This document shows positions 9,487-44,522 of a stretch of DNA of 44,522 bases, in pieces. This DNA is from a virus. Every line of letters begins with the position of its first letter. Position 1 is the stretch's first letter. The translations under genes and the position numbers were made by a program. Below the pieces are notes generated by a model. The model made no database searches, had not been told where the DNA came from, and worked only from the letters and a program-made list of their open reading frames with translations. The stretch lies in the UHGV virus genome UHGV-0355499. One strand, given 5' to 3'.

Positions 9487-9487
9487 A

Positions 9488-21456: not shown

Positions 21457-21459
21457 TCA

Positions 21460-23911: not shown

Positions 23912-24019
23912 CGATTTTCATGACCTCGTTTACATAGAAATTAAAAACCCGGTACGGCAGGTCCATTTGCGTATCGGGCGGGATGGCAAGTTTTTTCGCA
24001 ATAAACGGAATCAGAATAA

Positions 24020-24301: not shown

Positions 24302-24313
24302 TTTATTTGCCTT

Positions 24314-24826: not shown

Positions 24827-24843
24827 ATCAATTCTCCAGATTA

Positions 24844-28535: not shown

Positions 28536-28537
28536 GG

Positions 28538-29844: not shown

Positions 29845-30716
29845 ATATGAGTGTGTCCGTTATACGTTGTGCGGACTTCAGTTATTGTGCCTTGTCGGTC
29901 CTGCACCTCTTGCCCTGCTAACACACTACCGCGAGTTGTGATATTACCTGTTCCACCGTTATCTCCAGTGACAGAAATATCGTTACGGAATGTCGCTAAT
30001 TTATCTACTACTAATGTCTCGGTAATATGCGTTGGACCAGCTAGTGTTATACCACCCGGAGCCCACGCGCTGATTGTTTGAGCTGTCAGCGATATTCTGT
30101 TCGCAGCAGTAACACTAACAGAACTCGTTGCTATAACGTTCACTAAATCAGCATGTGCGTTAATTGTATCTGTCGCTGTGACATTAATAATATCAGCGTC
30201 TGCGTTAATTAATTTCCCACCATGGATATTAACTACATTTTCGCTATTAATAGTAACATCTGCGCGTCCAAATATTTCTATTTCAGACTCACCGAGTATT
30301 TTTACCACGCCGTCCGGTACGCCCTGCCATGTCAGAGTGTGATTTTTTGTGTTATACGTCATCGTAGCCCCGTCACAGTATGCAGTGACATGATCATGGG
30401 GGTCATTGCTTGGCGGAGCTTTGTCGTCAATGTGCAGCCCGAGCATAACTACACCGTTCCGCGTATCCCCACCCTCAGAAACAACAGTAACGGGATCGCC
30501 CACTGATGGTGCGCTCCAGTCGACGCGTTCTGAGGTGGCGTGAGTAAACCACTGCAGCCAGCCTGACTGGTGTTCGCCACCAAATGAGACTCGGCAGCGT
30601 GGAGGATTCATTTTAACTGCAGCTATCGTGCCGCGTTTAACTGCGTCACGCAGCCTGCGCGCGTTCTCCGCTGCAGCATATTCATCGTCCGATTGGGCCA
30701 TAATAGTCGCCCTCAT
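29799..30716 (-). CDS. baseplate assembly protein V (central spike)
   Basis: 305-aa ORF; N-terminal V-like region (SGWLQWFTHATSERVDWSAPSVGDPVTVV), repetitive beta-rich C-terminus. Confidence 0.7.
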   Translation of the reverse strand: MRATIMAQSDDEYAAAENARRLRDAVKRGTIAAVKMNPPRCRVSFGGEHQSGWLQWFTHATSERVDWSAPSVGDPVTVVSEGGDTRNGVVMLGLHIDDKAPPSNDPHDHVTAYCDGATMTYNTKNHTLTWQGVPDGVVKILGESEIEIFGRADVTINSENVVNIHGGKLINADADIINVTATDTINAHADLVNVIATSSVSVTAANRISLTAQTISAWAPGGITLAGPTHITETLVVDKLATFRNDISVTGDNGGTGNITTRGSVLAGQEVQDRQGTITEVRTTYNGHTHICPDGETQQPNQPMA

Positions 30717-31218
30717 GTTCTGCGCCGATATCTGGTGCTATTCCGACGTATATATTTTTCAGGGTCCCCTGTGAGGGATAATCGAAAATATCTGGACCAA
30801 CGCCTACAACCTGCGTGAACGACACGCACTGAACTGAATGCGAACCGACTGACTGCCCGTTTTTAATCCAGTCGCACGGTTCCGCGTCGCTGAATTTTGC
30901 CGGTTTAGTTCCGGGACCGAACATTCGCCCATTGATCCAGCTCGTCATATAGAGCGCTGCATTCTGCGATTTCAGTCCGTACTGATCAGCTGCAAATTCA
31001 CGCAGCAAATACAAATTACACGACAGCTCGACTGACTGAATTGAGCCTGGAACCGATTCGTCACTCTGTGACCAGTTGCTGATTTCCAGGAACAGAGCTG
31101 GCGTTTCAAATCCAGCCGGAATTTCCGGATAAATTCCGAATGTTTTGATGAACGGTATTTGTAAAACCGCGCCTTTAACGCGATCAAGATATTCGTCAAA
31201 TGCATCCAGTCCGCTCAT
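30682..31218 (-). CDS. putative tail completion / virion morphogenesis protein
   Basis: 178-aa ORF between head-tail joining genes and baseplate V, the slot of P2 R/S. Confidence 0.35.
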   Translation of the reverse strand: MSGLDAFDEYLDRVKGAVLQIPFIKTFGIYPEIPAGFETPALFLEISNWSQSDESVPGSIQSVELSCNLYLLREFAADQYGLKSQNAALYMTSWINGRMFGPGTKPAKFSDAEPCDWIKNGQSVGSHSVQCVSFTQVVGVGPDIFDYPSQGTLKNIYVGIAPDIGAEHEGDYYGPIGR

Positions 31219-31895
31219 AATCGTTTACCTGTTTTTGGGTCTACGTGGACATTACCTTTCACGCGACCGCGCAAATCTTTCTCAAAAAAGCCCATAAAAA
31301 CAGGGCCAATGTTTTCAAAAATATAATCATCGATAGCATCCTCCAGCGCGTCGTGCACAGGTACGCGAGCCTCTTCGATTCCTCCGCGATCCAGTCGAAT
31401 CCAGACACTTTTCGCACCGTAGCGTTTCGCTACGAATGAATCGGGCCAACTCATCATCGCCAGCCCTGCACTTTTGGGTGTAAAAGTTGCCCCTCTAGCG
31501 CCTTTTTTGGTTTTCAAAAACAGGCCGGTCTCAAGATCGCGAGGCTGTTTTTGCCTCCGTGGATTTTGTAATCGCCCCTTTAGCTCAGATACCCGGAAAT
31601 CATTCAGACCGTACCAGAGCTTGGCGCTGCTCAGGTCTCCTGCCCCTTCTTTTGTAAAATTACGGCGCTTAATGAACGGCTTGATTCGTTTATCTACGGC
31701 CTTATGATTTTTAGCTGCCAGTGCAGTCAAAATCATTCCTGCTGAAATTCGGTGCATATGTTTTGCAGTTCGGTTCAGCGCCCTGTTGTATACCATTAAC
31801 ATTTGATGTTGCGTCGCGCTGATTTCGACTCTGAGCTGCTCCAGCGCCGAAACATCGATATCGAACATCTGCGCGTTACTACGTAAATCGGCCAC
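31215..31895 (-). CDS. putative tail completion / virion morphogenesis protein
   Basis: 226-aa ORF in the P2 R/S slot; 4-nt overlap with downstream gene. Confidence 0.35.
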   Translation of the reverse strand: MADLRSNAQMFDIDVSALEQLRVEISATQHQMLMVYNRALNRTAKHMHRISAGMILTALAAKNHKAVDKRIKPFIKRRNFTKEGAGDLSSAKLWYGLNDFRVSELKGRLQNPRRQKQPRDLETGLFLKTKKGARGATFTPKSAGLAMMSWPDSFVAKRYGAKSVWIRLDRGGIEEARVPVHDALEDAIDDYIFENIGPVFMGFFEKDLRGRVKGNVHVDPKTGKRL

Positions 31896-31926
31896 GGTTC
31901 CCCCTTAAGTGGGACCGAGGTCCCAC

Positions 31927-32307
31927 TTAGTATTTTGAATACTCGCTGTTTTCGCTGGACGTGTGAGGCTCTAAAAAAATATTCGTGAGCCCTGTGCCAT
32001 CAGGTTGAGGCTCTTTAACCACGTAATCGGTCCAGCCAGACCAGGTAACAGAGCCGTCAGGTTCGATGCTGCGCTGCTTTGGAACCTGGACGACGTCACG
32101 CGCAACAACGCCAGCGACGTCGTCCGAGAGCGCCGTCAGGCTCGTTACTGTACCGGTAATAAAACCAGCGTGAGGAACGTCAACGCGCGCGTAAGGCTCG
32201 TTGAAAATAGCGATAATGGGGTCGGTTTTACCGCGTAATTTAACGGGCCGTCCCCACTCACGGATCATCTCCTCGTCGCCGGCCCGGAGGTCATCGTAGT
32301 AGCTCAT
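31927..32307 (-). CDS. head-tail joining protein (lambda FII-like)
   Basis: 126-aa ORF two genes downstream of the major capsid gene, the lambda FII slot. Confidence 0.4.
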   Translation of the reverse strand: MSYYDDLRAGDEEMIREWGRPVKLRGKTDPIIAIFNEPYARVDVPHAGFITGTVTSLTALSDDVAGVVARDVVQVPKQRSIEPDGSVTWSGWTDYVVKEPQPDGTGLTNIFLEPHTSSENSEYSKY

Positions 32308-32723
32308 AGAGCGTAAACGTGATCAGCTGCGATAAGGTCTGCGACCTCCGGTGAATCAACAACAATTTCACGGCCTGCGGCAACAATCTCGCGAACGCGA
32401 CGCCCGTTCACGTAGTGATAAACGTCCAGCGTGTTACGCAACTTGACGCGGCGCGTAGCCGGTGCGAGCTCCTGCTCTTGTGACTGTGAAACGATAGCGC
32501 TCGCGATTGATTGAGCGAGTTCATTATCGGTCCCGGACGCAGTATTCACTGTAATCTCGATGCCTCCCGCGTCACCGGATTGCTCGTTCAGAATATCGAG
32601 CTCTGACTCAGCGCCGGCAACGATTGATTCCAGTTCCGCAATAGTCCCGCTGCGCGGTAATTCGCGACCGAGCTGAGCGCTCAGATCGTCAATACGCGCC
32701 AGCAATTCTGTTTTTGTGCTCAT
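32304..32723 (-). CDS. putative DNA packaging / head completion protein (lambda FI slot)
   Basis: 139-aa acidic ORF immediately downstream of major capsid gene. Confidence 0.3.
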   Translation of the reverse strand: MSTKTELLARIDDLSAQLGRELPRSGTIAELESIVAGAESELDILNEQSGDAGGIEITVNTASGTDNELAQSIASAIVSQSQEQELAPATRRVKLRNTLDVYHYVNGRRVREIVAAGREIVVDSPEVADLIAADHVYAL

Positions 32724-32757
32724 GTTGATTCCTTAACAAAAAAGAGCCTTTCGACTC

Positions 32758-33792
32758 TTACGCGATTTTTACGACAACGAACGCGTCGGCGTCCGTGAGG
32801 ACCATTGCTGGCGCGGATTGCGTCATTGTTTGCGTCACTGCCGGATCACCGGTAGTGGTCCAGACTTTTGGATAGCGCGTCGCTTCGGAAATACCCTCTT
32901 TCAGCGCGTCTTCGTCCTGAATTGCGCCATAAGTGCGGAGCCCGCGGTTTTTTGTGTTGCCAAGGATCATCGTGTTATCCGGCATATAACGCGTTTCAGT
33001 GTCTGTTACCGGGTCGAGGTATTGCCCTTTGTAGACAAACAGCGCAGTGTCGCCGTAGTAGCCTTTAAAGCTGACAACGTCGCCCAGGTTTTTCAGCGCG
33101 ACCTCGAGCTGGCTGTTTGAGCCACGGCGCGTATCCAGTGCCGTCCAGAATTTTTTAAAACGCTTCAACTGCTTCCAGGCTTTACCATCCATGATGATCA
33201 CGTTAACCGCACCGGAGGCGAGGTCCGCGTAGGATTCAATATCGTCGCTCGGGTCATACGTTTCCGCGTCCTGAGTCGACCAGGCTGTCGAACCGGACTG
33301 AGTGACGTTATTCGTCGCGCTGCGGCTCATGTCGATCTCATAGGTCTCGATATTGCTGCCGGAAACAGTGTATTTACCGTACAGAACAGCCTGTACCGCC
33401 TGGAACTCTTCGAGCTGGCTGATGCTCAGTTCCTCATCAAGCAGGTTCTGCATGATGATTTTTGCACGACGTTCGACCGGCGTTTCCGGCTGGCCAATCT
33501 GCTCACCGGCTGCGCGCTTGATGCTCATATTCGGATTGATCGTGTGCTTGGGTTTCGTGTAACCCGGTTTGAAATGGTTCGTTGAATAGCCGCGAGTGCG
33601 GTCAACTTTGCCGGTGATCATCGGCGCGCAGTACACGGCCATGTTCACTTTTCCCGGGATTTTATCCAGAAAAACCTCTTCGCTCGTAAACGTGTAGGTC
33701 TCACGGAAAAACAGCTTTAAAAACAACGGATTGAACTTAAATACCTGCTGTGTCGCGGTAATCAGTTCTGACGTAGTAAACGAATCGCTCAT
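32758..33792 (-). CDS. major capsid protein (lambda gpE family)
   Basis: 344-aa ORF; synteny terminase-portal-protease-decoration-capsid and strong AGGA RBS. Confidence 0.8.
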   Translation of the reverse strand: MSDSFTTSELITATQQVFKFNPLFLKLFFRETYTFTSEEVFLDKIPGKVNMAVYCAPMITGKVDRTRGYSTNHFKPGYTKPKHTINPNMSIKRAAGEQIGQPETPVERRAKIIMQNLLDEELSISQLEEFQAVQAVLYGKYTVSGSNIETYEIDMSRSATNNVTQSGSTAWSTQDAETYDPSDDIESYADLASGAVNVIIMDGKAWKQLKRFKKFWTALDTRRGSNSQLEVALKNLGDVVSFKGYYGDTALFVYKGQYLDPVTDTETRYMPDNTMILGNTKNRGLRTYGAIQDEDALKEGISEATRYPKVWTTTGDPAVTQTMTQSAPAMVLTDADAFVVVKIA

Positions 33793-33805
33793 TTATATAT
33801 CCTGT

Positions 33806-33831
33806 TATAAAAAAACCGCCCGGAGGCGGCT
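33806..33831 (-). terminator. intrinsic terminator-like hairpin between decoration and capsid genes
   Basis: CCGCC-CGGA-GGCGG stem-loop followed by a U7 run on the - strand, ~25 nt upstream of capsid start. Confidence 0.45.
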
Positions 33832-33850
33832 TGTTTTGAGTTTTTTGCTA

Positions 33851-34180
33851 TCAGCCGACGCTGATCGGCGTACCCGCAAATGCTGATTTGCGTTTAGCTA
33901 CGTCGGTAACCGTACCCCAGTTAATCGCCGTGTAACGGAACGAGCCTGATTTATAGTACGAGCAGTCTGCAGAACTGGAGCCAGTATTAACTGCGGTGGC
34001 AGTGAGGCCAATAGCTTTACCGACTGAGCCGTCCCAAACCTTAAACGTCCCGACAGTAGCGTCGAGCATAATCGGTGTCAGCCGGGGTACGTTGATCCCG
34101 CCCTGAAAATGACCGACGGTCGTGACAACAAGGTCAGGCCCAAGAATAAAATCGTCCGGGCTATACGTTTCTGTAGTCAT
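33851..34180 (-). CDS. head decoration protein (lambda gpD family)
   Basis: 109-aa ORF between protease/scaffold and capsid genes. Confidence 0.75.
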   Translation of the reverse strand: MTTETYSPDDFILGPDLVVTTVGHFQGGINVPRLTPIMLDATVGTFKVWDGSVGKAIGLTATAVNTGSSSADCSYYKSGSFRYTAINWGTVTDVAKRKSAFAGTPISVG

Positions 34181-35487
34181 TATTCATCCCCTAAAATTGA
34201 ACGCCCTGCAGCAACCAGCATCGAGACGTTTGCGGTTGTTCCTGTTGCCGTAGTACTGCCAGCATCCTGAATAGTCGCTGGTGATTCAGTGCTCATTAGT
34301 GTATCGAGCGCCGTTTCTGTCCGCGCCTGCGCCGTTTTAGGTGCTGCAGCGAGGACTACCTGCGCCTGCCCGACCGTCATCCCGGGGACGCCAGCGAGCG
34401 CTTTTGCCTGCGCCTCGCGCCCAACAGCTTCGGGACAATTGATGATGGCCATCACACGCGCCAGTTCGCTTGATGCGGCGTCCGCGCGAATCTGCTCCGT
34501 GTTAAACTCAACCTGCGCGACAGTAGTCGTGGTCGCGGTTTGTTCTGTGGTCGTGGTCTCCGCCGTGGTTTCTGTACCAGACATAAAGCGCTCCATTTTT
34601 GGTTTCAGTGCGTCGGCCATCACTGCGATAGCGTCCGCGTAATTAACGAGTTGATCAGCGAGACCAGATTTAATCGCGTCCGCGCCGATAAATACTGCAG
34701 CTTCCGTGGCCAGCACCCTGGATTTTTTCAGCCCGGTATAATCCGAGACTTTTTGCGCGAACTGCTCGCGCGTGCTGTTAATACTCAGCTGGAATTCGTC
34801 GCGAACGTCGCCTGGCAGCTGGGAATACGGGTTCCCGTCAACTTTGTGCGCGCCGGCGTAAATCAGCGTCACGTCGACGCCAGCAATCTCCAGCGCTTTT
34901 TCGACGCAGCGGTGAGCCATCAGGACACCGATTGAACCAACTGTGCCTGTCTGCGTTATCAGCCGGCGCGAACACGCTGACGCCAGCAAATAGGCAGCGC
35001 TGCAGGCCGTATCGCTGGCCAGCGCCCACACAGGTTTTTGCTCTCGCGCCCGGGCGATTAAATCAGCAGTATCAAACGCGCCGGCGACTTCACCGCCAGG
35101 GGAGTCAATATCAAGCAGGACCCCTCTTACATCGGGATCAGAAATCGCCTGCTGCAGGCGTTTTGCGATTCCGTTGTAACCGCTCATCCCGCTAACTGGG
35201 TTGATATAACCCAATTTATGAACCAGCGTCCCGGTAACCGGCAGAACGGCTATACCACGCTCCACGCGATACGATTTCTGGCGTGTTCGCTCGCTGCTGT
35301 CCCACCCCATCGCGAGCGCGTTCATTTCGTCGCTGTTCATTACCTCTCCAGACGCTGTATCAATCAGTCGCCCGGTACCGAACCGGTCGCTCAGCGCCGA
35401 AAAAAATACCCGCGCGTAGGTGGGCTCCAGCAAAAGCGGTTGATTGAACGCCCTGGCGGCGAGGTGCGGAAAATTGTTCCACGGCAT
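34180..35487 (-). CDS. head maturation protease / scaffold (lambda gpC-like, S49 peptidase family)
   Basis: 435-aa ORF; S49/ClpP-like core (VLLDIDSPGGEV...ASDTACSAAYLLASAC) with Ala/Thr-rich C-terminal region. Confidence 0.8.
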   Translation of the reverse strand: MPWNNFPHLAARAFNQPLLLEPTYARVFFSALSDRFGTGRLIDTASGEVMNSDEMNALAMGWDSSERTRQKSYRVERGIAVLPVTGTLVHKLGYINPVSGMSGYNGIAKRLQQAISDPDVRGVLLDIDSPGGEVAGAFDTADLIARAREQKPVWALASDTACSAAYLLASACSRRLITQTGTVGSIGVLMAHRCVEKALEIAGVDVTLIYAGAHKVDGNPYSQLPGDVRDEFQLSINSTREQFAQKVSDYTGLKKSRVLATEAAVFIGADAIKSGLADQLVNYADAIAVMADALKPKMERFMSGTETTAETTTTEQTATTTTVAQVEFNTEQIRADAASSELARVMAIINCPEAVGREAQAKALAGVPGMTVGQAQVVLAAAPKTAQARTETALDTLMSTESPATIQDAGSTTATGTTANVSMLVAAGRSILGDE

Positions 35488-37061
35488 CAGTTACCTCCCC
35501 AGCCGTTATCGTTGGTATTTGAGGGGTGAGATACAGACCATGACGGTTCGCTCAGCCCCATTTCACGCCGGCGCTGAATTTCGTATTCCTGCTGCTCCAT
35601 AACCTCCTCGTAATCCTGTCCCTGCAGCGCCAGTTCGTTCTGATACGTGCTGAGGCCAGTTGTGATGCGCATGGCGCTCTCCTGAACCTCTTTCAGCCCA
35701 TCAATCGCCATGCGACCAGCGCCGATCCAGAGCGCGTTCGTCCAGGAGTTCCGCGCCTCATAAAACGACCGGACAGCTGAGCGTGGCAGGGTGATAATTC
35801 CGCGTGCCAGCGCCTCTTCAAACCAGCAGCAGAACATCAGCGACGCCTGTCGCGCGGCGATAAAACGTCGACGCCCCATGAAAAATCGCCAGCTGACGTT
35901 AGCACTGGCCCGGGCGCTGGAGTAACTGACCTGGCTGTAGTCCCGGCTAAGTTCTTCGTATGACGCGCCAACGCCAGCTGCAACGTAACGCAGGAGTGAT
36001 TTTTCCAGTGAACTAAAACCAGCATCAGCATTCTGAGCGGTCTGTAAACTGAGTTTGTCGCCGGGATGCAGGTGGGGAACTTTCACACCACCGAGCTTGA
36101 TATTTGCGCCGTTGTAGTACGTCACGTAACTCTGAATAAACGAATTCAGCGGGTTCGAGTCGATATCAGTACCCGCGCCGGCGATATATTCAAACGCCTG
36201 CTGGCTGTCGAGCTCTGATTCGATTGTCGCGGCATACATCGCCTTCACAATGGCGCTCTGCAGTTGTGTTTGCTGCAGTGTGTCGAGCATTTTCAGGCGC
36301 TCCATGACGCTGTAAAAAATATTGTCCCCGCGGGTCTGTCCGTCCTCGAGCGGCTCGAATATGTGGATGAATGCGTGTCTGCCGCTGCTGAGCTGTGCTG
36401 GGATACGCCGGCATTTACCGACTCCGCCGAGAGGGTAAGTATCCTCGGCTATCCAGTACCCGACCGCGGCCCCGTTTTTATCGATATCAACACCGGCGCG
36501 GCGAAATTGAGTGTCAGCTGCGTAACCCGGATTTCGAATCCGTTTCGGTGAGACCATTTTGAATCGCGTCCGAAAAACGCTGCCGGCACTACTCTCCCAG
36601 ACTGGTTGTACGCAGGTTTCACCGTTGAAAGCGTGAGTAGCCACGCCCTCGCGGATCATCATTGTGAACGTCCGTTTCCGCTCGATATCAATCGTGCAGT
36701 GAGGGTCCTCGGCGTATTCAGTCCACGCTACCTCGACGTCACGCGCCAGCGCCCTGGCGTCCTCGCGAGATATGCCGAGGTAACGCCAGTTAGGGCGATA
36801 ACTCAACTTAAACAGATTGCCGACGATATGATCCTGGTGCAGCTGCACGGCGTTCGACGCGACGCCGTTATTGCGAACGAGATCGTCTGCTCGCGCGTTA
36901 CCGCGATAAAAATTCGGCAACAGTGCTGCGTCGGCGCTCTGCTGTGGTGCGTTCCAGTCAATCAGCTGGCCACCGAAACCGGGACCGCCGCCGTTATACC
37001 CCGCGTAACGGCGTAGTGGCGTTTTACCGTCAGGCCCGAGCAGCTGCTGCGGAGCAGTCAT
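35487..37061 (-). CDS. portal protein (lambda gpB family)
   Basis: 524-aa ORF immediately downstream of W-like and terminase genes. Confidence 0.85.
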   Translation of the reverse strand: MTAPQQLLGPDGKTPLRRYAGYNGGGPGFGGQLIDWNAPQQSADAALLPNFYRGNARADDLVRNNGVASNAVQLHQDHIVGNLFKLSYRPNWRYLGISREDARALARDVEVAWTEYAEDPHCTIDIERKRTFTMMIREGVATHAFNGETCVQPVWESSAGSVFRTRFKMVSPKRIRNPGYAADTQFRRAGVDIDKNGAAVGYWIAEDTYPLGGVGKCRRIPAQLSSGRHAFIHIFEPLEDGQTRGDNIFYSVMERLKMLDTLQQTQLQSAIVKAMYAATIESELDSQQAFEYIAGAGTDIDSNPLNSFIQSYVTYYNGANIKLGGVKVPHLHPGDKLSLQTAQNADAGFSSLEKSLLRYVAAGVGASYEELSRDYSQVSYSSARASANVSWRFFMGRRRFIAARQASLMFCCWFEEALARGIITLPRSAVRSFYEARNSWTNALWIGAGRMAIDGLKEVQESAMRITTGLSTYQNELALQGQDYEEVMEQQEYEIQRRREMGLSEPSWSVSHPSNTNDNGWGGN

Positions 37062-37291
37062 AATCGAACTCCCACGGGCCGACGGCGTCCCGTACTCAGA
37101 CCGAGCTGTGATTTCAGCTCGATAATGTACGTTCGGAGCTGCTCAATACTCGCCTGCGAGTATTGATAGCTCCGGTTATTTCCTGCTGAATCGCCGTGAG
37201 ACAGCGACACGGTCGATTTACCCGTTAATAATTTGTGCAGAGCGATTTCCGCTTCCAGCAGTCGTTCTGTTAAAACCTCGCGCGACGTCAT
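37058..37291 (-). CDS. head-to-tail joining protein (lambda gpW-like)
   Basis: 77-aa ORF between terminase large subunit and portal genes. Confidence 0.65.
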   Translation of the reverse strand: MTSREVLTERLLEAEIALHKLLTGKSTVSLSHGDSAGNNRSYQYSQASIEQLRTYIIELKSQLGLSTGRRRPVGVRL

Positions 37292-39252
37292 TAGCTCCCT
37301 CCGAGCATTCTGGCCATCTCCTCGAGAGACAGTTTGTTTTGTGATTTTTTCCGTTGCTCAGCGAGCGTCTCGAGATTGAGCTGGAAACGAATTTTACTGA
37401 TACGCAGCGCTGCCAGTCCGTACACCCAGCAGTCGAGCGCCTCATTTCGCCGGCCCTGGTTGTCCCAACGATAAACGACGCGACCGTTAATGAGTTTCGG
37501 GATCAGAACCTCGGAGACGAGCTGTTTTGCCTCTGTCGTGCTGAATATTTCGTCGTCGTTGGGAAAATGAATCGCACCTGGTGTCGCCGATTTGGAGTCG
37601 GGTTCCAGCTGCAGGCGCATTGCGAGCAGGTCTTTCGCTGTATCTGTCCCAATCAACGACAAATACACTTTATTCGCGTTACGGGTACGAGGCATATTTA
37701 CGACCGGCTGGCCGTATGAGCTCGCGCCCTTGATTGGAATGACCCACAGCGGACCGAGTTTCAGCGAGCGGTTATAAACGACCTGCGCATCTATACCACC
37801 GGTATCCCACGCCCAGCGACTGACGCCGATTGTGGTCCCGTCGCTGCGCCGGTATTGTTTGCGAATCACTCCGTCGACGCGCTGCAGCGTGTCCTCCTCG
37901 TCGTAGCGACCGAGGACGATTGTTTTATCAATCAGCCAGCACTCCTCCTCGGCTCCCCAGCCCCACACATAACACTCGTAGCGCCCGGACGTCTGAGAGT
38001 CGATGCCGCCGGTTATATAAACAACACCGTCAGGAACCTGGCTGGCGTATTTTTCCCGGCGATTAACCAGAATATCGTGCTCCAGCTGCTCGCTGGCCAC
38101 GTCGCTCCAGAGTTCGCCGAGCGTCGTGTTATGAAACGTCTTTTCCTTGAGCGGGTCGCCTTTCGCTTTCAGCCACTCGCTGACAATCTCGCCCCATCCA
38201 TCGAGGTTTAGTGAATACAGGGCGTTTATCACGATCGCAGCGTGTTTCGGCGCGCGAACGACGCCACCGTCATGATCAAAAAAATGAATGCCGTCTCGGG
38301 TCCAGGTGCAGTCCTCGGCTATCCAGCGCCCCCCGAACTCCATTTTTTCGAGATCGCGATAGTAAAAATGTTCCGGGCAGTGGCAGCACTGGTAATACGC
38401 GGACGACGATTTCGCCTCATTGGTCTGCAGGCTGTTATCCCATTTGAGGCCGTATTCGATACCGTCGAAACCAAATACCAGGACCTGCTCCTCGCCACAA
38501 TGCGGACATGTCAGGTAAAAACGAAACGTCAGATCGGCAGCGTCTTCGAGCATTTCGATATGACTTTTGCCGGTAACGGTCGGCGTCGAACCAAAAATCG
38601 CCTTCGGGTACGCTGCCCCTTTAATTCGAACGAGCGCCAGTTCGATGGGCGAGCCCTCGCCTTTGCCTTTTTTGGCAACTTCCAGCGGCCAGCCGTCAAC
38701 TTCGTCACCCTCGACAACCTGTTTCGTTAGTCGCCGGAAATTTCCTGGTGCACTCGCGCCGCGAAAATCAAGAATCGCGCCGCTCATTTCTTTACGCTGG
38801 AGATTGTTACGCTCGTTGCTTTTATCCCAGTCGGGGAAAATTTTCTGAATCACTGGCATTTCGGCGATAGCGGGGTCAACCTCGTCGGCGACAAATCCAT
38901 CCGATTCGTCATCGATAGGCTGATAGACCACGGCACTACGTTTTTTGTGCTCAGCGAAATAGAGCAGCGCCGCGACGAGTATTTTTGTATAACCGAGACG
39001 AGCTGATTTGCGAACAGACACGATTTTTATCGCGTCGTTCGTCATCATATTGAGCATCACTACCTGGACCGGCTGAGTCGTCCAGTGCCCAGCGATGTGG
39101 CTGGAGCCCTCAGGGAGATAAAAATATTTATCAGCCCACTCAACACCCGTCATCGGTATCGTCACGCGCAAGGGATTCAACCCTGTCGAGATCGCGTTCG
39201 ATATCGCTGACATCGTAATCGCTGAAGTCGATTCGTATGTCTGACAACTCAT
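37291..39252 (-). CDS. terminase large subunit (lambda gpA family)
   Basis: Extended similarity to lambda gpA (VEWADKYFYLPEG, LTCPHCGEEQVLVFG, VYITGGIDSQ, RNEALDCWVYGLAALRIS); true start probably internal (~39153 or ~39213). Confidence 0.9.
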   Translation of the reverse strand: MSCQTYESTSAITMSAISNAISTGLNPLRVTIPMTGVEWADKYFYLPEGSSHIAGHWTTQPVQVVMLNMMTNDAIKIVSVRKSARLGYTKILVAALLYFAEHKKRSAVVYQPIDDESDGFVADEVDPAIAEMPVIQKIFPDWDKSNERNNLQRKEMSGAILDFRGASAPGNFRRLTKQVVEGDEVDGWPLEVAKKGKGEGSPIELALVRIKGAAYPKAIFGSTPTVTGKSHIEMLEDAADLTFRFYLTCPHCGEEQVLVFGFDGIEYGLKWDNSLQTNEAKSSSAYYQCCHCPEHFYYRDLEKMEFGGRWIAEDCTWTRDGIHFFDHDGGVVRAPKHAAIVINALYSLNLDGWGEIVSEWLKAKGDPLKEKTFHNTTLGELWSDVASEQLEHDILVNRREKYASQVPDGVVYITGGIDSQTSGRYECYVWGWGAEEECWLIDKTIVLGRYDEEDTLQRVDGVIRKQYRRSDGTTIGVSRWAWDTGGIDAQVVYNRSLKLGPLWVIPIKGASSYGQPVVNMPRTRNANKVYLSLIGTDTAKDLLAMRLQLEPDSKSATPGAIHFPNDDEIFSTTEAKQLVSEVLIPKLINGRVVYRWDNQGRRNEALDCWVYGLAALRISKIRFQLNLETLAEQRKKSQNKLSLEEMARMLGGS

Positions 39253-39706
39253 TTAAGGCTATCGCCAGCTCCTCTCGTAATACACTGCTCGCCTCTTGCG
39301 GCATCTCCGGCCAGACCTTTTTCAGGCGTGGTGGCCACGACTCGACGCGGGTACGTAATTCAACGGCGACGCGAGATACAGCGACGCTAATTAATTCAAT
39401 TGGCGCGTAGCGTTTAGCGAGAATGCGGCGTTTTACTCGTGCCATCAGGATTCGCTCCTGTCGTTCCTCATTTTTCAGCCACTGCTCGCGATTTTTTTCG
39501 GGAGAATTGTCCCCCGCTTCCGGTTCGTCATTACTAGTTGTGTCGCGTCTATTGCTCCGGAGATAACGAATATAAAAATGGCGCCATGCGTCTAGCTCCC
39601 AATCACCACGTCCTTGTGGGACTGGTGCTCCCGGAAGTTTTGCGAGATCGCGCAGACGACGATCAGATAGCAGTAAATGTGCTGCAACCTCAGCCTGACT
39701 TGCCAT
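39140..39706 (-). CDS. terminase small subunit (lambda Nu1-like)
   Basis: 188-aa ORF overlapping the large subunit start; N-terminal HTH-like region. Confidence 0.6.
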   Translation of the reverse strand: MASQAEVAAHLLLSDRRLRDLAKLPGAPVPQGRGDWELDAWRHFYIRYLRSNRRDTTSNDEPEAGDNSPEKNREQWLKNEERQERILMARVKRRILAKRYAPIELISVAVSRVAVELRTRVESWPPRLKKVWPEMPQEASSVLREELAIALNELSDIRIDFSDYDVSDIERDLDRVESLARDDTDDGC

Positions 39707-40059
39707 TAAAAATCCTCACCGGAACCGGAAATACCCAAAATGAAAAAATACTAAAAACGAGCGAGTTTTTGCGCGTCTACCGACCCTCGGTGTTTTGGAT
39801 TTCGGAAAGGACCCGCGACCAGGGGGCTATCTCCCTTTCAGGACAGGAATTAGGGGCTCGCATCAGGTTCATCAAACTCAACTGTAGCCTCGCGGCGTAC
39901 TTGTTTGCATACATCAGCTTTGTGTATCTGATTATCAGCGTAAGCTTTCACTTTGGCAGCGAGCCATCCTTTTGTGCTGTATCGATAGACTACCGAACAA
40001 GTTTTCCATATATGTATATATCTTGAACTTATTGATATCATTACAGAAAAACAACAACC

Positions 40060-40320
40060 ATGAGAACGCAAAAAATGAACAGAGAAAAAATTGAAGCCTT
40101 AATGAGCGTAATATTAAAAGAAGCTGACCCAAAAAAGTTTCCTGAGAAGTTATCAGAGGACGCCATCGTATCTTTTTATCGTGCGAACTCCTCTTATCTA
40201 AATTGTTCAACTTTAAGAGAATGGCTAAGCGGCGAAGCAGAGCCTTCAGATGAGATACTTCAGAAGATTATGGTTCAGAACAACTGGCGCGCAACAAAAT
40301 GGTCAAATCAGTTACCTTAA
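40060..40320 (+). CDS. hypothetical protein (opposite-strand cargo gene between lysis and packaging modules)
   Basis: 86-aa ORF on + strand in an otherwise minus-strand late region; AT-rich upstream region; hairpin downstream. Confidence 0.4.
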   Translation: MRTQKMNREKIEALMSVILKEADPKKFPEKLSEDAIVSFYRANSSYLNCSTLREWLSGEAEPSDEILQKIMVQNNWRATKWSNQLP

Positions 40321-40334
40321 TCTGTTGAATGTGT

Positions 40335-40359
40335 GCCGCCTTAAAACAAAAAGGCGGCC
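40335..40359. terminator. hairpin between convergent genes (possible bidirectional terminator)
   Basis: CCGCCTT-loop-AAGGCGG stem-loop between ORF 40060-40320 (+) and lipoprotein gene (-); no clear U-run. Confidence 0.3.
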
Positions 40360-40379
40360 TCTCGTTAAAGTAAATTACC

Positions 40380-40574
40380 CTATTTTCCACCAAGGCATGA
40401 AGCCTCTGCCCCGGTTGAATCAATACAACCACCGTTCGCAGTAGTAATCTTCGTACCCGGCGCGATCATCACGTGTTTAATACTGCTGCCGTCAGCGCGA
40501 GTCGCTTCGGTGTATGTCGAATGTGTGCAGCCTGCCAGCGTGAAGAACGCGACAGCTAAGAGAAGTTTTTTCAC
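40380..40574 (-). CDS. small lipoprotein (possible spanin component)
   Basis: 64-aa ORF with lipobox LAGC, directly downstream of endolysin gene. Confidence 0.45.
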   Translation of the reverse strand: MKKLLLAVAFFTLAGCTHSTYTEATRADGSSIKHVMIAPGTKITTANGGCIDSTGAEASCLGGK

Positions 40575-40581
40575 GTTTTAC

Positions 40582-41061
40582 CTACGCTTCTGAGATAGAT
40601 TTCTCAGCATTCACCAATGGAAGTGATTGTGGAACATCCGTTTGACCTGCTGGCCAGCGGTAGCCTGTTACGCGGGAACGAGGAAAAGCTTTGATATTTA
40701 CTTCATCTGCCTGGTTGCCCCCCAAAATCATTAAATCCCCGGCGGCATTTTTCCCGACAACAAAGCCGACGTGACCACCGCCAGACCGAGACAGAATAGC
40801 AATGCATCCATAGGCGGGTTCCTTCAGTTCATTACCCCAATCGAGATAAGAATTCGCAGACTCAAAACGCGTTGAGCGAATACCCGCACGTTCCAGCATT
40901 GCCCCGGTGAAAGCAGCGCACCACGGTGTTTCGTCATCCTTAATGCCGCCGCGTTTGATATCTTTCCAGTACTGCACAATTTCTGCAGCATGTTGCTTCC
41001 CTTTCATTTCCCGAATGCCGAGGTTTTTTCGAGCCTCGATTAGCCATTTAGGATCCGTCAT
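40582..41061 (-). CDS. putative endolysin (Cys-His peptidase-like)
   Basis: 159-aa ORF in lysis cassette; candidate catalytic Cys (PWCAAF) and His (GGGHVGF). Confidence 0.55.
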   Translation of the reverse strand: MTDPKWLIEARKNLGIREMKGKQHAAEIVQYWKDIKRGGIKDDETPWCAAFTGAMLERAGIRSTRFESANSYLDWGNELKEPAYGCIAILSRSGGGHVGFVVGKNAAGDLMILGGNQADEVNIKAFPRSRVTGYRWPAGQTDVPQSLPLVNAEKSISEA

Positions 41062-41333
41062 TACCTGTCTCCTGTTATTTTTGAAATATTCCCTCGTGCC
41101 CGCCAGACAGCAATACAGATGGTGAGGTTGAGAAAGAACTCTGCGGGATCAACCTGCGTATATTTCCCGTAAAAAATTCGTAGGGCTATCCACGCAGCAG
41201 ACAGAATCGCGAGGTAAGCAGTTAGTGAGATGAAAAAACGATAGCGGCCTGTTTTTTGAAAAAACATCAACCGTAGTGCCAACATCAGACAAATAATTGC
41301 ATTGGCATTGATGAGGACAGAGTGCAGGGTCAT
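41061..41333 (-). CDS. small membrane protein (holin/antiholin-like)
   Basis: 90-aa ORF with 2-3 hydrophobic helices, stop/start overlap with neighbours. Confidence 0.45.
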   Translation of the reverse strand: MTLHSVLINANAIICLMLALRLMFFQKTGRYRFFISLTAYLAILSAAWIALRIFYGKYTQVDPAEFFLNLTICIAVWRARGNISKITGDR

Positions 41334-41797
41334 TATTTCATCCCCTTATCTGATTTCCATAAACGAGCTTGTGACATGATCCGCAACAGTGATGTAACGC
41401 TGATTACTGATGCAACCAGTGCACCAATGGCGGGAGAGACTTTTACTGTTACGGGAGGGTTCAGGTGACTCAGCACCGCGTTCAGAATACCGGTAATGAT
41501 GGCTGACGCTGTCTCAGCGCAATACACACCGCCAACAAACGAAATGAGTGCGAAAATAACCTGCTTCCAGAATCGATGCTGCCCGGACGACAACACATAG
41601 AGAGCTGCGCCTGCCAGCGCACAGATCATCACTGCAGGTGTTGCCTCAGGAAATAACGCAGCAAACGTCACCCCCGCCGAGCCAGCAGCAACGCCAGCGG
41701 TTAGAGGTTCAGACATGATTTTTCCTGATTCAGAAACGACAAAACCCCGCCGTGGCGAGGTTCTTAGAAATTTGGCAACATACCAAATTAGCGTCAA
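41333..41797 (-). CDS. putative holin
   Basis: Membrane protein with multiple TM segments immediately downstream of Q-like gene; true start likely internal (MSEPLTAG...). Confidence 0.5.
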   Translation of the reverse strand: MTLIWYVAKFLRTSPRRGFVVSESGKIMSEPLTAGVAAGSAGVTFAALFPEATPAVMICALAGAALYVLSSGQHRFWKQVIFALISFVGGVYCAETASAIITGILNAVLSHLNPPVTVKVSPAIGALVASVISVTSLLRIMSQARLWKSDKGMK

Positions 41798-41828
41798 ATA
41801 TGGCCTATTTTGTTCGTTTTTGCAAGCA

Positions 41829-42500
41829 TTATACGCAAACGTCGTCTAAATGGTTCTGATAATGATGCAAAGTTGCAAGAAGTGCCACTTCATCAAGTGC
41901 TCTCACCGCCTCTTTCATTCCTACCCAGTGCAGGGAGTATGTTTCGCACCAGGTGGAACGAGAAACCGACAGCATTCCTGCTAGGGTAGATCCGGCCATC
42001 TCCTTAAAATCCTCGCGTTTATTTGCTGCTGCGACCGCCTGCACGGACAACCACACCAACGAAAGCAGGCGCTTAACTACTTTTCTCTGAGTTGACGCGG
42101 GGATGTTTCCTTTATAGCGACTCCAGACAGCCTCACAAATAGCTGTTTGGTGTTTGAATGCCAGGTTACCACCGTAGCAATAACGCAACCACGCTTGCTG
42201 ACTTGCATCCAGCGAGTTCACAGAACGCCGCCAGGATGAATCAGCAAATTCAAAATCACTCATCGGCGGCGCGGGGCGACGTCTGCTGAAACTTTCCAGA
42301 GCGTAAACTGGCGTAACCAGAGCATCAACGGTCCGGTCCTCCAGCTGCACACGGTGAATATGTTTGCGTGGGTATGCGTTTTTGTCTGCCGGTGGGTGCT
42401 CACACAATGCTTCCAGTTGCCCCTTAGAACCACCAGACAAATCCCGCAATGCAGCGCGCAGTTTTATGCGGGTATATTCCAATAAATACTCGTTACTCAT
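41829..42500 (-). CDS. putative late-gene antiterminator (Q-like)
   Basis: 223-aa ORF between nin-region genes and the lysis cassette; assignment mainly positional. Confidence 0.5.
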   Translation of the reverse strand: MSNEYLLEYTRIKLRAALRDLSGGSKGQLEALCEHPPADKNAYPRKHIHRVQLEDRTVDALVTPVYALESFSRRRPAPPMSDFEFADSSWRRSVNSLDASQQAWLRYCYGGNLAFKHQTAICEAVWSRYKGNIPASTQRKVVKRLLSLVWLSVQAVAAANKREDFKEMAGSTLAGMLSVSRSTWCETYSLHWVGMKEAVRALDEVALLATLHHYQNHLDDVCV

Positions 42501-42793
42501 CAGATAAACTCCTCATCGCGCCAGATAGCCAGTGTTCTGAAAACTCCCTCAGCGTGCATCAACAACAATGAGTCGTGCTCGTAATCCGTTTTTGTACGTC
42601 CGTCGATGGCATCGTGACACGCACTGCAGGCGATAGCGCCCTGCATATCGTGAGGTTTGATGGCTGTGCCGCACGTTCCGGCGAGACGATAATGAGCCAG
42701 TACGCTGGTTTCAGGATTGTGATTGCACACACCGGGGATACGCACAGTACAAGCGCGACTGCGTGCAGCTTTTCTCAGGTCGATTTTTTTCAT
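42500..42793 (-). CDS. YbcO-like (DUF1364) nin-region protein, putative nuclease
   Basis: 97-aa ORF; DLRKAARSRACTVRIPGVCNHNPETSVLAH...IACSACHD closely resembles DLP12 YbcO as recalled from memory. Confidence 0.65.
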   Translation of the reverse strand: MKKIDLRKAARSRACTVRIPGVCNHNPETSVLAHYRLAGTCGTAIKPHDMQGAIACSACHDAIDGRTKTDYEHDSLLLMHAEGVFRTLAIWRDEEFI

Positions 42794-43386
42794 GATGTGT
42801 AATCCAGCAGCTGCGCGGCGGCATTTTCAGCGGCCTCCTGAGAGGCAAATGTGCGGAACAAAATATAATTCCACAGCACATCTAAAACGGCTGAATACAG
42901 TTGACCGAACTCAAGATCGTCCATCGCTGCAAACGAGATTGAACGAGGTACGCGCATCAAACTGCCGTCTGGCATCTGATGAACGTCATAAAACCCAGCT
43001 TCCATAATCGCCCATGCGCGAAACGCCTCGAACGACTTCACCGCACTGATACTCCCCGCGCGCTTTTCCGACTCATCGAGAAGATACTGATCAGCCAGCT
43101 CTGCCATGACATCACCGTGTCCACCGTAATACGCCAGTAACTTAACGTAGCCGTGAACCAGTTCGCGCTCCGCAGGAGAAATAGCCCCTCCGGACGGATG
43201 CCAGTAATCAAAGCCCAGGTTGAGAAGTGAGAAAAATTTACGATGAAACGCGGGATTACGCGCCTGTTTGAAATCTGCATACACAACAGCACCTGGTTTG
43301 ACTCGTTCAGTCAACCAGCGTTGCGTGTCTGGTGTCGCGGGTATTAGCGAACCGCCGGATACCCTGATAAATGAATGCTGCGCCAT
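42790..43386 (-). CDS. nin-region protein (NinB/YbcN-like, uncertain)
   Basis: 198-aa ORF upstream of YbcO-like gene with 4-nt overlap; family not confirmed. Confidence 0.4.
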   Translation of the reverse strand: MAQHSFIRVSGGSLIPATPDTQRWLTERVKPGAVVYADFKQARNPAFHRKFFSLLNLGFDYWHPSGGAISPAERELVHGYVKLLAYYGGHGDVMAELADQYLLDESEKRAGSISAVKSFEAFRAWAIMEAGFYDVHQMPDGSLMRVPRSISFAAMDDLEFGQLYSAVLDVLWNYILFRTFASQEAAENAAAQLLDYTS

Positions 43387-43463
43387 GGTTAACTCCAGGT
43401 GGCGCGGCAGTGTTCAGAAAATGATGCCGGGTGTTCAATCCAGCACCGATATTATACCGTGTT

Positions 43464-43643
43464 TTACGCGTCAGGGGGTGTAATAGTATATCCAGCTATT
43501 TCTGCCAACTCGAGAAACGCCATCAGGCTGGCAATCCGCTCATCATCGGTCAGAACACGCACACCAACGATGTGTCCGTCCTTACGCTTGATAACAGCCC
43601 GGCATGTTTCCGGTAGTTCGCCTATAGATTCTTGAATATTCAT
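43464..43643 (-). CDS. small hypothetical protein under a LexA-box promoter
   Basis: 59-aa ORF from ATG ~43643 (ORF-track start 43664 is TTG); SOS box ~20 nt upstream. Confidence 0.4.
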   Translation of the reverse strand: MNIQESIGELPETCRAVIKRKDGHIVGVRVLTDDERIASLMAFLELAEIAGYTITPPDA

Positions 43644-43665
43644 GTCTTCCCCCCAATGCCACAAC

Positions 43666-43681
43666 CTGTATATTTATACAG
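43666..43681. promoter_or_regulatory. LexA box (SOS operator)
   Basis: CTGTATATTTATACAG = CTGT-N8-ACAG with AT-rich spacer, matching the enterobacterial LexA consensus. Confidence 0.65.
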
Positions 43682-43794
43682 TATTTTATGGCATTTGTCA
43701 TAACGCCAAATACAATGAGGGAATAATGAACAATTATATTCACGTCGTGAATTTTATTAAACGGTTTTATAGGGGATTAAACCGTTTATGGTCA

Positions 43795-44385
43795 TTATTT
43801 ATCACTCCTGTAAATTGGAATTAACCATTTTCTAATCGTCGACGCTGCAGGTGGGTCAGAGTATTTCGCCACAAAAATACCGGATATGTATTGCACGCCA
43901 CGCGATAATGGCGCTGTCGGGTTTTCAGTAAAAAAACGATCAGCCAGTTCAATGGCTTCGCTTTTTAATCTGTGCTGTGGTCGTCCTCCGCCCTTTGTTC
44001 CCAGGTATCGCGCCAGTTGTTTGAAACGGTAGGCGATGATTAACGGTCGCATCATCATATTGAAAAAATCGCGGGCATCGTTGTCAGCGCCTTGCGCTAT
44101 CAACAGTGCAAAAAACAGATACGGGATTATGTACACTTCAGGAGATATACGAACCCGTTCACAAGTTGGTGGAGCCAACTCAATAAGTAAGTCAGCCAGC
44201 GGATTCCCCTTTTCTCCACGTTTGTAATAGCGATACAGCGGCCCGATATCAAGTTCACTCACGTCGATTTCAGGATGCCCGGCAACGACTGTACGTATCT
44301 CTTCTGCCAGAGCGTCAAATATTGCCCCGGTCCGTTCAAGATAGAGCCTCCGGGTCGAACCGCGATCATCCAACGCCCGTAACAT
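43795..44385 (-). CDS. hypothetical phage protein
   Basis: 196-aa ORF upstream of the LexA-box gene; no domain recognised. Confidence 0.4.
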   Translation of the reverse strand: MLRALDDRGSTRRLYLERTGAIFDALAEEIRTVVAGHPEIDVSELDIGPLYRYYKRGEKGNPLADLLIELAPPTCERVRISPEVYIIPYLFFALLIAQGADNDARDFFNMMMRPLIIAYRFKQLARYLGTKGGGRPQHRLKSEAIELADRFFTENPTAPLSRGVQYISGIFVAKYSDPPAASTIRKWLIPIYRSDK

Positions 44386-44522
44386 ATCTAACCGGCTAAC
44401 GAAAGTTTCAGGCCAGTCCTCATTGATGCGCCGCGCGATAAATGCACTCTATCTTGTGCGATAAATGGCATCCACGCGGCGTTTCATTATTTGAAAAAGA
44501 ATTACATTTCAGGTTGCGTTAT

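What the first reader, a model, noticed from the sequence alone, without database searches (positions are those of the whole stretch)
43464..43681. Consensus LexA box directly upstream of a small gene in prophage B
CTGTATATTTATACAG (CTGT-N8-ACAG) lies ~20 nt upstream of a 59-aa ORF on the - strand, next to the nin region. SOS-controlled small phage genes are typically antirepressors or induction modulators (Tum-like or DinI-like logic), so this could be the DNA-damage switch of prophage B or a modulator of host RecA/LexA.
Basis: partly seen in the sequence, partly recalled or inferred. Interest (0 to 1): 0.5.

Follow-up and report, generated by a model that had tools for sequence, protein, structure and literature searches.

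The report
LexA-controlled small phage antirepressor gene
A near-perfect binding site for the DNA-damage repressor LexA sits on the promoter of a 59-residue phage gene that belongs to the known Gifsy/Fels-1/Qin family of small antirepressors, so this is most likely the phage's ordinary DNA-damage induction switch, so far labelled only "hypothetical protein".

Summary
CTGTATATTTATACAG lies at 43666..43681, 22 nt upstream of the ATG (43643) of a 59-aa ORF (43464..43643, minus strand).

The bare CTGT-N8-ACAG motif is not significant (0.43 expected per window). The full 20-mer is: it scores 24.7 bits on a LexA matrix, the next best site in the window scores 9.8, and 0 of 200 shuffles reach it. The box is kept in every nin-region (small gene then DUF1367) relative examined, down to 40% protein identity.

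The protein matches PHROG 340 (E=1.6e-20). So do Fels-1 FsoA, a close relative of Gifsy-1 GfoA, and Qin Rem; FsoA, GfoA and Rem are experimentally shown antirepressors. It sits where gftA/gfoA sit in Gifsy phages, just upstream of the irsA/DUF1367 gene, but without a dinI gene.

The same phage genome encodes a 130-aa repressor with only a helix-turn-helix domain (13243..13635). It resembles GtgR and DicA over its full length and has no self-cleavage domain.

Best reading (about 0.85): DNA damage removes LexA, the antirepressor is made, it binds the repressor, and the phage is induced. This is a new member of a known kind, of modest interest.

In passing: "prophage A" and "prophage B" are one phage genome in circular order, opened by a Mu-like element.

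The parts
43664..43683 (.). LexA (SOS) box, 20-mer ACCTGTATATTTATACAGTA; core CTGT-N8-ACAG at 43666..43681
   Evidence: Matrix score 24.7 bits, 0 of 200 shuffles reach it. Conserved in relatives.
43673..43701 (-). Inferred sigma-70 promoter: -35 ATGACA (43701..43696), 17-nt spacer, -10 TATAAA (43678..43673) inside the LexA box; predicted start near 43666
   Evidence: Read from the sequence. Both hexamers are kept in alignment A1 and in L036. The -10 lacks the usual final T, so the scan does not list it. Not mapped experimentally.
43646..43654 (-). Ribosome-binding site GGGGGGAAG, ending 2 nt before the ATG (5 nt from the end of the G run)
   Evidence: a GGGGG run is kept in A1.
43464..43643 (-). 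59-aa acidic soluble protein (pI 4.7): predicted antirepressor of the GfoA/FsoA/Rem family
   Evidence: phrog_340 E=1.6e-20. A separate profile links it to FsoA, a GfoA relative and Rem. dN/dS 0.17-0.19. AlphaFold model with a beta-hairpin and a helix, pLDDT 80.5.
42790..43386 (-). DUF1367 / NinB-like gene, homologue of Gifsy irsA (STM1020); next gene downstream, probably co-transcribed
   Evidence: Pfam PF07105 E=6e-78. Similarity to the STM1020 translation seen by eye, not scored. The same pairing is seen in all nin-region relatives.
41829..42793 (-). YbcO (42500..42793) and antiterminator Q (41829..42500), packed directly behind DUF1367; no strong terminator before the end of Q
   Evidence: Only a weak 8-bp hairpin followed by UUUU lies in the 77-nt gap after the 59-aa gene.
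13243..13635 (+). Predicted target: 130-aa phage repressor with an HTH_3 domain only and no S24 self-cleavage domain
   Evidence: Full-length similarity to Gifsy-2 GtgR (33%, E=5e-23) and to Qin DicA (31%, E=1e-15).
12893..13123 (-). Divergent Cro-like (YdaS-type) gene; the operator region lies between it and the repressor gene (13124..13242)
43733..43760 (-). Second, better-matching promoter-like site (TTAATA-16-TATAAT) about 45 nt upstream of the box, with the palindrome TTCACGTCGTGAA (43739..43751) in its spacer
   Evidence: The factor that binds the palindrome is unknown. If this promoter is active, the LexA box lies about +43 to +62 on its transcript.
43795..44423 (-). Upstream gene (213 aa in intact relatives) cut at its 5' end by a Mu-like element

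Best explanation
The 59-aa ORF encodes a small antirepressor of the GfoA/FsoA/Rem family, and its promoter is shut by host LexA. In a lysogen, LexA sits on the box at 43664..43683, which covers the -10 element and the predicted start of a promoter reading leftward, so the gene is silent. DNA damage activates RecA and LexA cleaves itself. The promoter then fires and the small acidic protein is made. It binds the phage's own short repressor (13243..13635), which cannot cleave itself, and takes it off its operators between 13124 and 13242. That opens the early promoters and starts lytic growth. The transcript probably runs on into DUF1367, YbcO and Q.

Shown here: the site, its statistical strength and its conservation; that the ORF is a conserved coding gene; family membership by sequence; the gene order; and the presence and type of the repressor. 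Inferred from the tested relatives (Lemire 2011; Ragunathan 2023): LexA binding, SOS-dependent expression, binding to the repressor, and induction.
For: 1. The LexA site scores 24.7 bits and is unique in the 42.6-kb phage genome. It scores like the sites in front of tum and of dinI-gftA.
2. Among the close relatives fetched, 24 loci keep a box of 19.6-27.9 bits 18-20 nt from the ATG, in at least 8 sequence variants that all keep CTGT...ACAG; one further locus (L011) has a 2-bp deletion in the box, and one (L016) has no upstream sequence. The flanks vary and dS reaches 0.6-0.8.
3. Four deeper lineages at 58, 51, 49 and 40% identity each have one strong box (23.9-27.9 bits) upstream of the small gene. 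For the first three it is the only site of 15 bits or more in the locus. The gene is always followed by DUF1367.
4. phrog_340 is hit by this protein (1.6e-20), FsoA (1.1e-26), Rem (4.4e-21) and a GfoA relative (7.6e-21). FsoA was identified from the published primers.
5. A separate profile built from the hits finds FsoA (53 bits), the GfoA relative (31) and Rem (28), but not DinI (-1).
6. The gene order matches Gifsy-2 and SEN34: LexA box, (dinI), antirepressor, irsA/DUF1367, then Q.
7. The repressor in the same genome is of the GtgR/DicA type over its full length and has no S24 domain. GtgR is inactivated by GftA and FsoA, and DicA by Rem (PMC3121763, PMC10448788).
Against: There is no experimental datum for this gene. 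At 59 aa it is about 20 residues shorter at the N-terminus than GfoA, FsoA and Rem, although 60-66-aa forms dominate among its relatives. The inferred -10 (TATAAA) lacks the conserved final T, and a better promoter-like site lies upstream, so the way LexA represses (occlusion or roadblock) is not settled. Pairwise similarity to GfoA and FsoA is low (31-36%). The local Pfam copy holds no model for the family. The phage carries a second antirepressor-type module (isrK/C4 RNA plus an ORF6N protein at 7251..8288) that could also control induction. Family members are known to act on repressors of other phages, so the cognate target is inferred, not shown.
Confidence: 0.85

Rival explanations
1. The LexA-controlled promoter mainly serves the downstream genes DUF1367, YbcO and Q. 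SOS would then license late transcription or recombination functions directly, and the small protein would be an accessory or would do something else.
For: The genes are tightly packed on one strand, and no strong terminator lies between 43464 and the end of Q. In Gifsy phages the LexA operon also includes irsA (PMC3121763). The small gene is always paired with DUF1367.
Against: The small protein's own family has three members with shown antirepressor activity (PMC3121763; PMC10448788). Non-polar irsA and dinI deletions had no effect on Gifsy induction. A weak hairpin followed by UUUU after the gene may limit read-through. This reading can be true alongside the main one.
Confidence: 0.1
2. The protein acts mainly in trans on repressors of other resident prophages, or it is an orphan whose own phage no longer responds to it.
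For: GfoA, GfhA and FsoA act on non-cognate repressors (PMC3121763). In the window a Mu-like element separates the gene from the early region.
Against: A matching GtgR/DicA-type repressor lies in the same phage genome, and intact prophages of the same type exist in hundreds of E. coli genomes.
Confidence: 0.1
3. The product is a DinI-like or Tum-like modulator of RecA or LexA rather than an antirepressor.
For: SOS-controlled small phage genes include dinI homologues, and Gifsy operons carry one at this place.
Against: No Pfam DinI match at E up to 0.1. DinI scores -1 bit on the family profile. BLASTP against Tum gives E=13.
Confidence: 0.03
4. The palindrome is a chance AT-rich sequence with no LexA regulation, and the gene is expressed only by read-through from the early right operon.
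For: The bare CTGT-N8-ACAG motif is expected 0.43 times per window.
Against: The full site is reached by 0 of 200 shuffles. It is conserved in position across lineages down to 40% protein identity, while the surrounding sequence is not.
Confidence: 0.02

Closest known systems
[quoted passage not shown] 2011, PMC3121763)
   Same: Same sequence family (phrog_340, shown through the close GfoA relative SEN34_55). Similar C-terminus: GY-x-[IV]-TPP. Same position, just upstream of irsA/DUF1367 in the nin region and outside the immunity region. LexA box on the promoter. Partner repressor is short and has no cleavage domain.
   Different: Here the box directly precedes the antirepressor and there is no dinI gene between them. 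The protein is 59 aa rather than about 80 and starts with ATG rather than TTG. About 31% identity.
FsoA of Salmonella prophage Fels-1 (= STM0898.2n.Fels1, 78 aa)
   Same: Same family: 36% identity, phrog_340 E=1e-26, 53 bits on this family's profile.
   Different: FsoA lies in the early left operon under the phage repressor, has no LexA box, and plays no apparent part in Fels-1's own induction (PMC3121763).
Rem of the E. coli K-12 cryptic prophage Qin, antirepressor of DicA (Ragunathan et al. 2023, PMC10448788)
   Same: Same family (phrog_340 E=4e-21). It lies in the nin region upstream of Q. Its partner repressor DicA resembles the window's repressor.
   Different: No LexA box upstream of rem, and its inducing signal is unknown. 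83 aa. Followed by ydfU (DUF968), not DUF1367.
GftA of Gifsy-2 (STM1020.1n, 73 aa)
   Same: Same position, same LexA operon logic and same type of partner repressor.
   Different: A different PHROG (4847). Only marginal similarity to this family: E=0.23 to phrog_340 and 3.9 bits on the family profile.
Tum of coliphage 186 (also AntC of N15)
   Same: Works the same way: a LexA box overlaps the -10, lies about 18-22 nt before the start codon, and the product inactivates a repressor that cannot cleave itself.
   Different: No sequence similarity (E=13). Tum is 146 aa with a DinI-like C-terminal half. AntC was not compared here.

Membership tests
GfoA/FsoA/Rem small antirepressors (PHROG 340; Pfam PF27490 'Rem') | Significant match to the family profile | tested here: met
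   phrog_340 E=1.6e-20, residues 1-58. FsoA, Rem and a GfoA relative hit the same profile. A profile built from this protein's own relatives finds them at 53, 28 and 31 bits.
GfoA/FsoA/Rem small antirepressors (PHROG 340; Pfam PF27490 'Rem') | Match to the curated Pfam model PF27490 | tested here: inconclusive
   The local Pfam copy appears to lack the model, since Rem itself gets no hit. The relatives P0009 and P0012 carry precomputed faint or weak PF27490 hits.
GfoA/FsoA/Rem small antirepressors (PHROG 340; Pfam PF27490 'Rem') | Small soluble single-domain protein of about 60-85 aa | tested here: met
   59 aa, pI 4.7, no hydrophobic segment. Most relatives are 59-66 aa.
Gifsy-type SOS induction module | Antirepressor gene outside the immunity region, upstream of irsA/DUF1367 in the nin region | tested here: met
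Gifsy-type SOS induction module | LexA box on the operon promoter | tested here: met
   24.7 bits, overlapping the inferred -10, conserved. Binding itself was not tested.
Gifsy-type SOS induction module | dinI homologue as the first gene of the operon | tested here: not met
   The box lies 22 nt from the antirepressor ATG and there is no dinI. Non-polar dinI deletions had no significant effect on Gifsy induction, so I do not treat this feature as essential.
Gifsy-type SOS induction module | Phage repressor is short, of the GtgR/GfoR/DicA type, without an S24 cleavage domain | tested here: met
   130 aa, HTH_3 only. 33% identical to GtgR and 31% to DicA over the full length.
Gifsy-type SOS induction module | Antirepressor binds the repressor and releases it from DNA; SOS-dependent induction | not testable with these tools
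   Needs pull-down or gel filtration, EMSA and reporter assays.
DinI | Match to the DinI family | tested here: not met
   No Pfam hit at E up to 0.1. The SEN34 DinI scores -1 bit on this family's profile.
Tum (phage 186) | Sequence similarity to Tum | tested here: not met
   BLASTP E=13.

The most novel reading that the evidence does not exclude
The LexA-controlled promoter transcribes not only the antirepressor but also DUF1367, YbcO and Q. DNA damage would then feed directly into late-gene antitermination, in parallel with removal of the repressor. In this window a Mu-like element cuts the nin-Q-late block off from the early right operon, so this SOS promoter would be the only route to Q. 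The phage's lysis and virion genes would become a LexA-controlled unit, independent of the phage's own immunity.
Probability: 0.2. Interest if true: 0.5.

Novelty: new member of a known kind. Interest (0 to 1): 0.3.

Why it matters
It gives a function to a gene annotated as "hypothetical protein" in several hundred E. coli genomes (matches in 664 of 5,426 complete genomes, 419 of them nearly full length; the best-matching records shown are mostly human isolates). It also predicts how this prophage type responds to DNA-damaging antibiotics. The Gifsy scheme of a LexA-controlled small antirepressor extends to a set of E. coli and related phages that lack the dinI gene. The comparison offers a simple rule: family members in the nin region, upstream of DUF1367, carry a LexA box, while members in the early left operon, and Rem, do not. 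That contrast could help explain why the signal for Rem is still unknown. None of this would surprise a specialist.

Tried and rejected
1. Pfam and NCBIfam scans of the 59-aa protein found nothing. The local Pfam copy has no model for this family.
2. A sequence search of solved structures found nothing.
3. An AlphaFold model (pLDDT 80.5) searched with Foldseek against the PDB and viral models gave no match at E<=0.001. The domain is too small for the fold to inform.
4. The search for related loci with the wide alignment A2 failed for lack of a conserved stretch. With the narrow alignment it returned only close Escherichia relatives. L015 is a 279-nt low-coverage contig labelled Chryseobacterium, probably contamination.
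5. I tested whether the conserved palindrome TTCAC-N3-GTGAA upstream of the box matches the phage's own operators. It does not: the immunity region uses TTACA/TGTAA half-sites.
6. DinI-like and Tum-like identities were rejected.
7. An SOS-induced membrane toxin (TisB/DinQ/HokE type) was rejected: the protein is acidic and has no hydrophobic segment.
8. Literature searches found no paper on this particular gene or phage.

Full report
**1. The observation**

The plus strand reads CTGTATATTTATACAG at 43666..43681, the only CTGT-N8-ACAG in the window. On the minus strand an ORF runs from the ATG at 43643 to the stop at 43464 (59 aa). The tool lists its 66-aa form from an upstream TTG. That TTG would lie at the very 5' end of the predicted transcript, with no ribosome-binding site. 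The ATG is preceded by GGGGGGAAG (43654..43646). 22 nt separate the box from the ATG.

The bare 8-base motif is not significant: 0.43 are expected, and 35 of 100 shuffles have one. I therefore scored the full 20-mer with a matrix built from 26 E. coli LexA sites. These sites were recalled from the literature (Lewis 1994; Fernandez de Henestrosa 2000) and not re-verified here. The site scores 24.7 bits, above 23 of the 26 training sites. The next best site in the window scores 9.8 bits. None of 200 dinucleotide shuffles reaches 24.7; the highest is 20.1.

On the same matrix the annotated LexA site of phage 186 p95 scores 27.0 and the Gifsy-2 dinI-gftA site scores 24.0. This is the only LexA-type site in the whole phage genome.

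**2. The ORF is a real gene**

Two other alleles, 73-76% identical in protein, differ from the window allele mostly at synonymous sites. dN/dS is 0.17-0.19 at dS 0.6-0.8. The product is acidic (pI 4.7) and has no hydrophobic segment.

**3. What the protein is**

Pfam and NCBIfam give nothing. PHROG 340 ("unknown function") matches at E=1.6e-20. A weak tblastn hit in phage Fels-1 led to STM0898.2n.Fels1. Primers le154 and le162 in Table S1 of Lemire et al. 2011 encode exactly its N- and C-termini, so this ORF is FsoA. FsoA hits phrog_340 at E=1.1e-26.

Primer le163 gives the GfoA C-terminus as RRLGYRVTPPSDI. The window protein ends IAGYTITPPDA. The close GfoA relative in phages SEN34 and mEp237 hits phrog_340 at 7.6e-21, and Rem of Qin at 4.4e-21.

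As a second test I built a profile from the hits of a search of 1.84 billion representative proteins (38 hits, most of them 59-66 aa). It finds FsoA at 53 bits, the GfoA relative at 31 and Rem at 28. GftA scores only 3.9 bits and DinI -1.

GfoA, FsoA and Rem all have shown antirepressor activity: GfoA on GfoR and GfhR, FsoA on GtgR, Rem on DicA (PMC3121763; PMC10448788). Two deeper relatives carry precomputed weak or faint hits to Pfam PF27490 "Rem". That model is absent from the local Pfam copy, since Rem itself finds nothing there.

An AlphaFold model (pLDDT 80.5) shows a short helix, a beta-hairpin and a long helix. It has no significant structural neighbour.

**4. Gene order**

In Gifsy-2 and SEN34 the order is: LexA box, dinI, antirepressor, irsA homologue..., NinG, Q. 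By eye, the Gifsy-2 irsA homologue STM1020 is clearly similar to the window's DUF1367 protein at 42790..43386. In the window the order is: LexA box, 59-aa gene, DUF1367, YbcO, Q. The small gene therefore sits at the gftA/gfoA position, but with no dinI.

**5. Conservation of the box**

Among the close relatives fetched, 24 loci have a box of 19.6-27.9 bits 18-20 nt from the ATG. There are at least 8 sequence variants. All keep CTGT and ACAG, while the spacer and flanks change. One further locus, L011, has a 2-bp deletion in the box, and one (L016) has no upstream sequence.

Four deeper lineages have the same layout of small gene followed by DUF1367. Each has one strong box upstream:
- P0008 group, 58% identity, 27.9 bits, 20 nt from the start.
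- P0009 group, 51% identity, 23.9 bits, 75 nt from the start.
- P0012, 49% identity, 25.8 bits, 102 nt from the start.
- The phage labelled Stenotrophomonas BUCT708, 40% identity, 24.8 bits.

In the P0008, P0009 and P0012 loci this is the only site of 15 bits or more.

By contrast, family members in the early left operon (Fels-1 FsoA, ASU11, KPP5665-2, phi467) have no box. Nor does rem. LexA control is therefore a conserved property of the nin-region branch of the family.

**6. Promoter**

On the minus strand, ATGACA (43701..43696), a 17-nt spacer and TATAAA (43678..43673) form a promoter-like site. Its -10 lies inside the box and its predicted start is near 43666. Both hexamers are kept in relatives. 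The -10 lacks the usual final T, so the consensus scan does not list this site.

The scan does list a better site upstream, TTAATA-16-TATAAT (43760..43733). A conserved palindrome, TTCACGTCGTGAA, lies in its spacer. For that promoter the box would lie about +43 to +62. Either way, bound LexA would block transcription of the gene. Which promoter is used is not known. Phage 186 p95-tum has the same layout, with the box over the -10 and 18 nt before the start codon.

**7. The likely target**

Intact prophages of this type, such as the one in E. coli THO-003, show an immunity region about 12 kb upstream: a 130-aa repressor, a divergent YdaS-type Cro and a YdaT gene. The same region is in the window, with the repressor at 13243..13635.

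The repressor has an HTH_3 domain and no S24 peptidase domain. It aligns end to end with Gifsy-2 GtgR (33%, E=5e-23) and with DicA (31%, E=1e-15), including the C-terminal L-F-x-x-LPE-x-E motif. Repressors of this type are not cleaved on induction; antirepressors remove them (PMC3121763).

**8. Mechanism**

The most likely chain is: LexA cleavage after DNA damage; transcription of the 59-aa gene; binding of its product to the repressor dimer; release of the repressor from the operators at 13124..13242; early transcription.

No strong terminator lies between the gene and the end of Q. There is only a weak hairpin followed by UUUU. The SOS transcript may therefore also reach DUF1367, YbcO and Q. 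These steps are inferred from homologues. None was tested here.

**9. Comparison and novelty**

This is a new member of a known kind, the Gifsy-type LexA-controlled small antirepressor. It differs in three ways: there is no dinI, the protein is a short 59-aa form, and the box lies directly in front of the gene. It is related to neither Tum nor DinI. Every public annotation I looked at calls it a hypothetical protein.

**10. Architecture of the window (a side result)**

- Window 1..1806 is the "Mor end" of a Mu-like transposable prophage. The same 1,806 bases abut different chromosomal genes in other genomes.
- Window 44424..44522 is that element's "gin end".
- Between the two ends lies one complete phage genome of about 42.6 kb, in circular order. 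1807..13815 is the early region, and 13805..19605 is the left operon and integrase. An attP-type junction follows, with a 125-bp core at 19481..19605. Then come the tail genes, the head and lysis genes, Q, the nin genes and the antirepressor, up to 44423.
- The 6-bp target CCTCAT flanks both junctions. The copy of the element in strain A20 is flanked by TGCCGG in the same way.
- No complete E. coli genome and no phage record holds the attP junction.

This fits a Mu-mediated cointegrate, a circular phage-plus-Mu molecule, a tandem array or a misassembly.

Noticed in passing
window 1..1806, 1807..44423 and 44424..44522: The window runs from one end of a Mu-like transposable prophage (Mor, gp16; ends ...CCCTTCA) to the other end (TGATGCGCC..., next to a Gin-like recombinase). 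Between them lies one complete ~42.6-kb phage genome in circular order (early region, int, attP, tail, head, lysis, Q, nin). The 6-bp target CCTCAT is at both junctions. This fits a Mu-mediated cointegrate, a circular phage-plus-Mu molecule, a tandem array or a misassembly.
   Followed up: yes
window 19481..19605: A 125-bp att core (includes the 3' part of tRNA-Leu) joins the integrase side to the tail side. This is an attP-type junction, as in an excised phage. No complete E. coli genome (5,426) and no phage record covers it.
   Followed up: yes
window 8091..8288 (-) and 7251..8087 (-): Rfam finds isrK (80 bits), C4 antisense RNA (75 bits) and its a1/b1 target (53 bits) directly upstream of an ORF6N-domain gene. 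From my own knowledge, this is the P1 immI / Gifsy-1 isrK-anrP type of antirepressor module controlled by an RNA. It is a second possible input to induction that does not depend on LexA.
   Followed up: partly
window 43733..43795 (-): A conserved palindrome TTCACGTCGTGAA (43739..43751) lies in the spacer of a good promoter-like site (TTAATA-16-TATAAT) about 45 nt upstream of the LexA box, next to the direct repeat AAACGGTTTAAT / AAACCGTTTAAT. It is unlike the phage's own operators, and its binding factor is unknown.
   Followed up: partly
window 43795..44423 (-) and 1807..~1825: The gene upstream of the antirepressor (213 aa in intact relatives, phrog_5215, function unknown) is split by the Mu-like insertion about 17 codons after its start.
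   Followed up: partly
L011 ~9960 (E. coli GCA_030013595.1): One relative has a 2-bp deletion inside the LexA box (CTG--TATATATACAG; score falls to 13.4 bits). Its prophage also carries IS insertions. This could be a derepressed or decaying copy, or a sequencing error in the TA run.
   Followed up: no
window 2701..3804 (+): An ImmA/IrrE-type metallopeptidase gene (Peptidase_M78, 162 aa) with a 201-aa partner lies in the accessory region between the antirepressor and the replication genes. The content of this region varies between relatives (SMEK_N, GmrSD_N, methyltransferase, LprI), so it may be a hotspot for defence or accessory genes.
   Followed up: no
L015 (NZ_MVAG01000097.1, 279 nt): A 279-nt contig with coverage 0.73, in an assembly labelled Chryseobacterium, carries the E. 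coli LexA box and the start of the gene at 100% identity. It is probably contamination.
   Followed up: no
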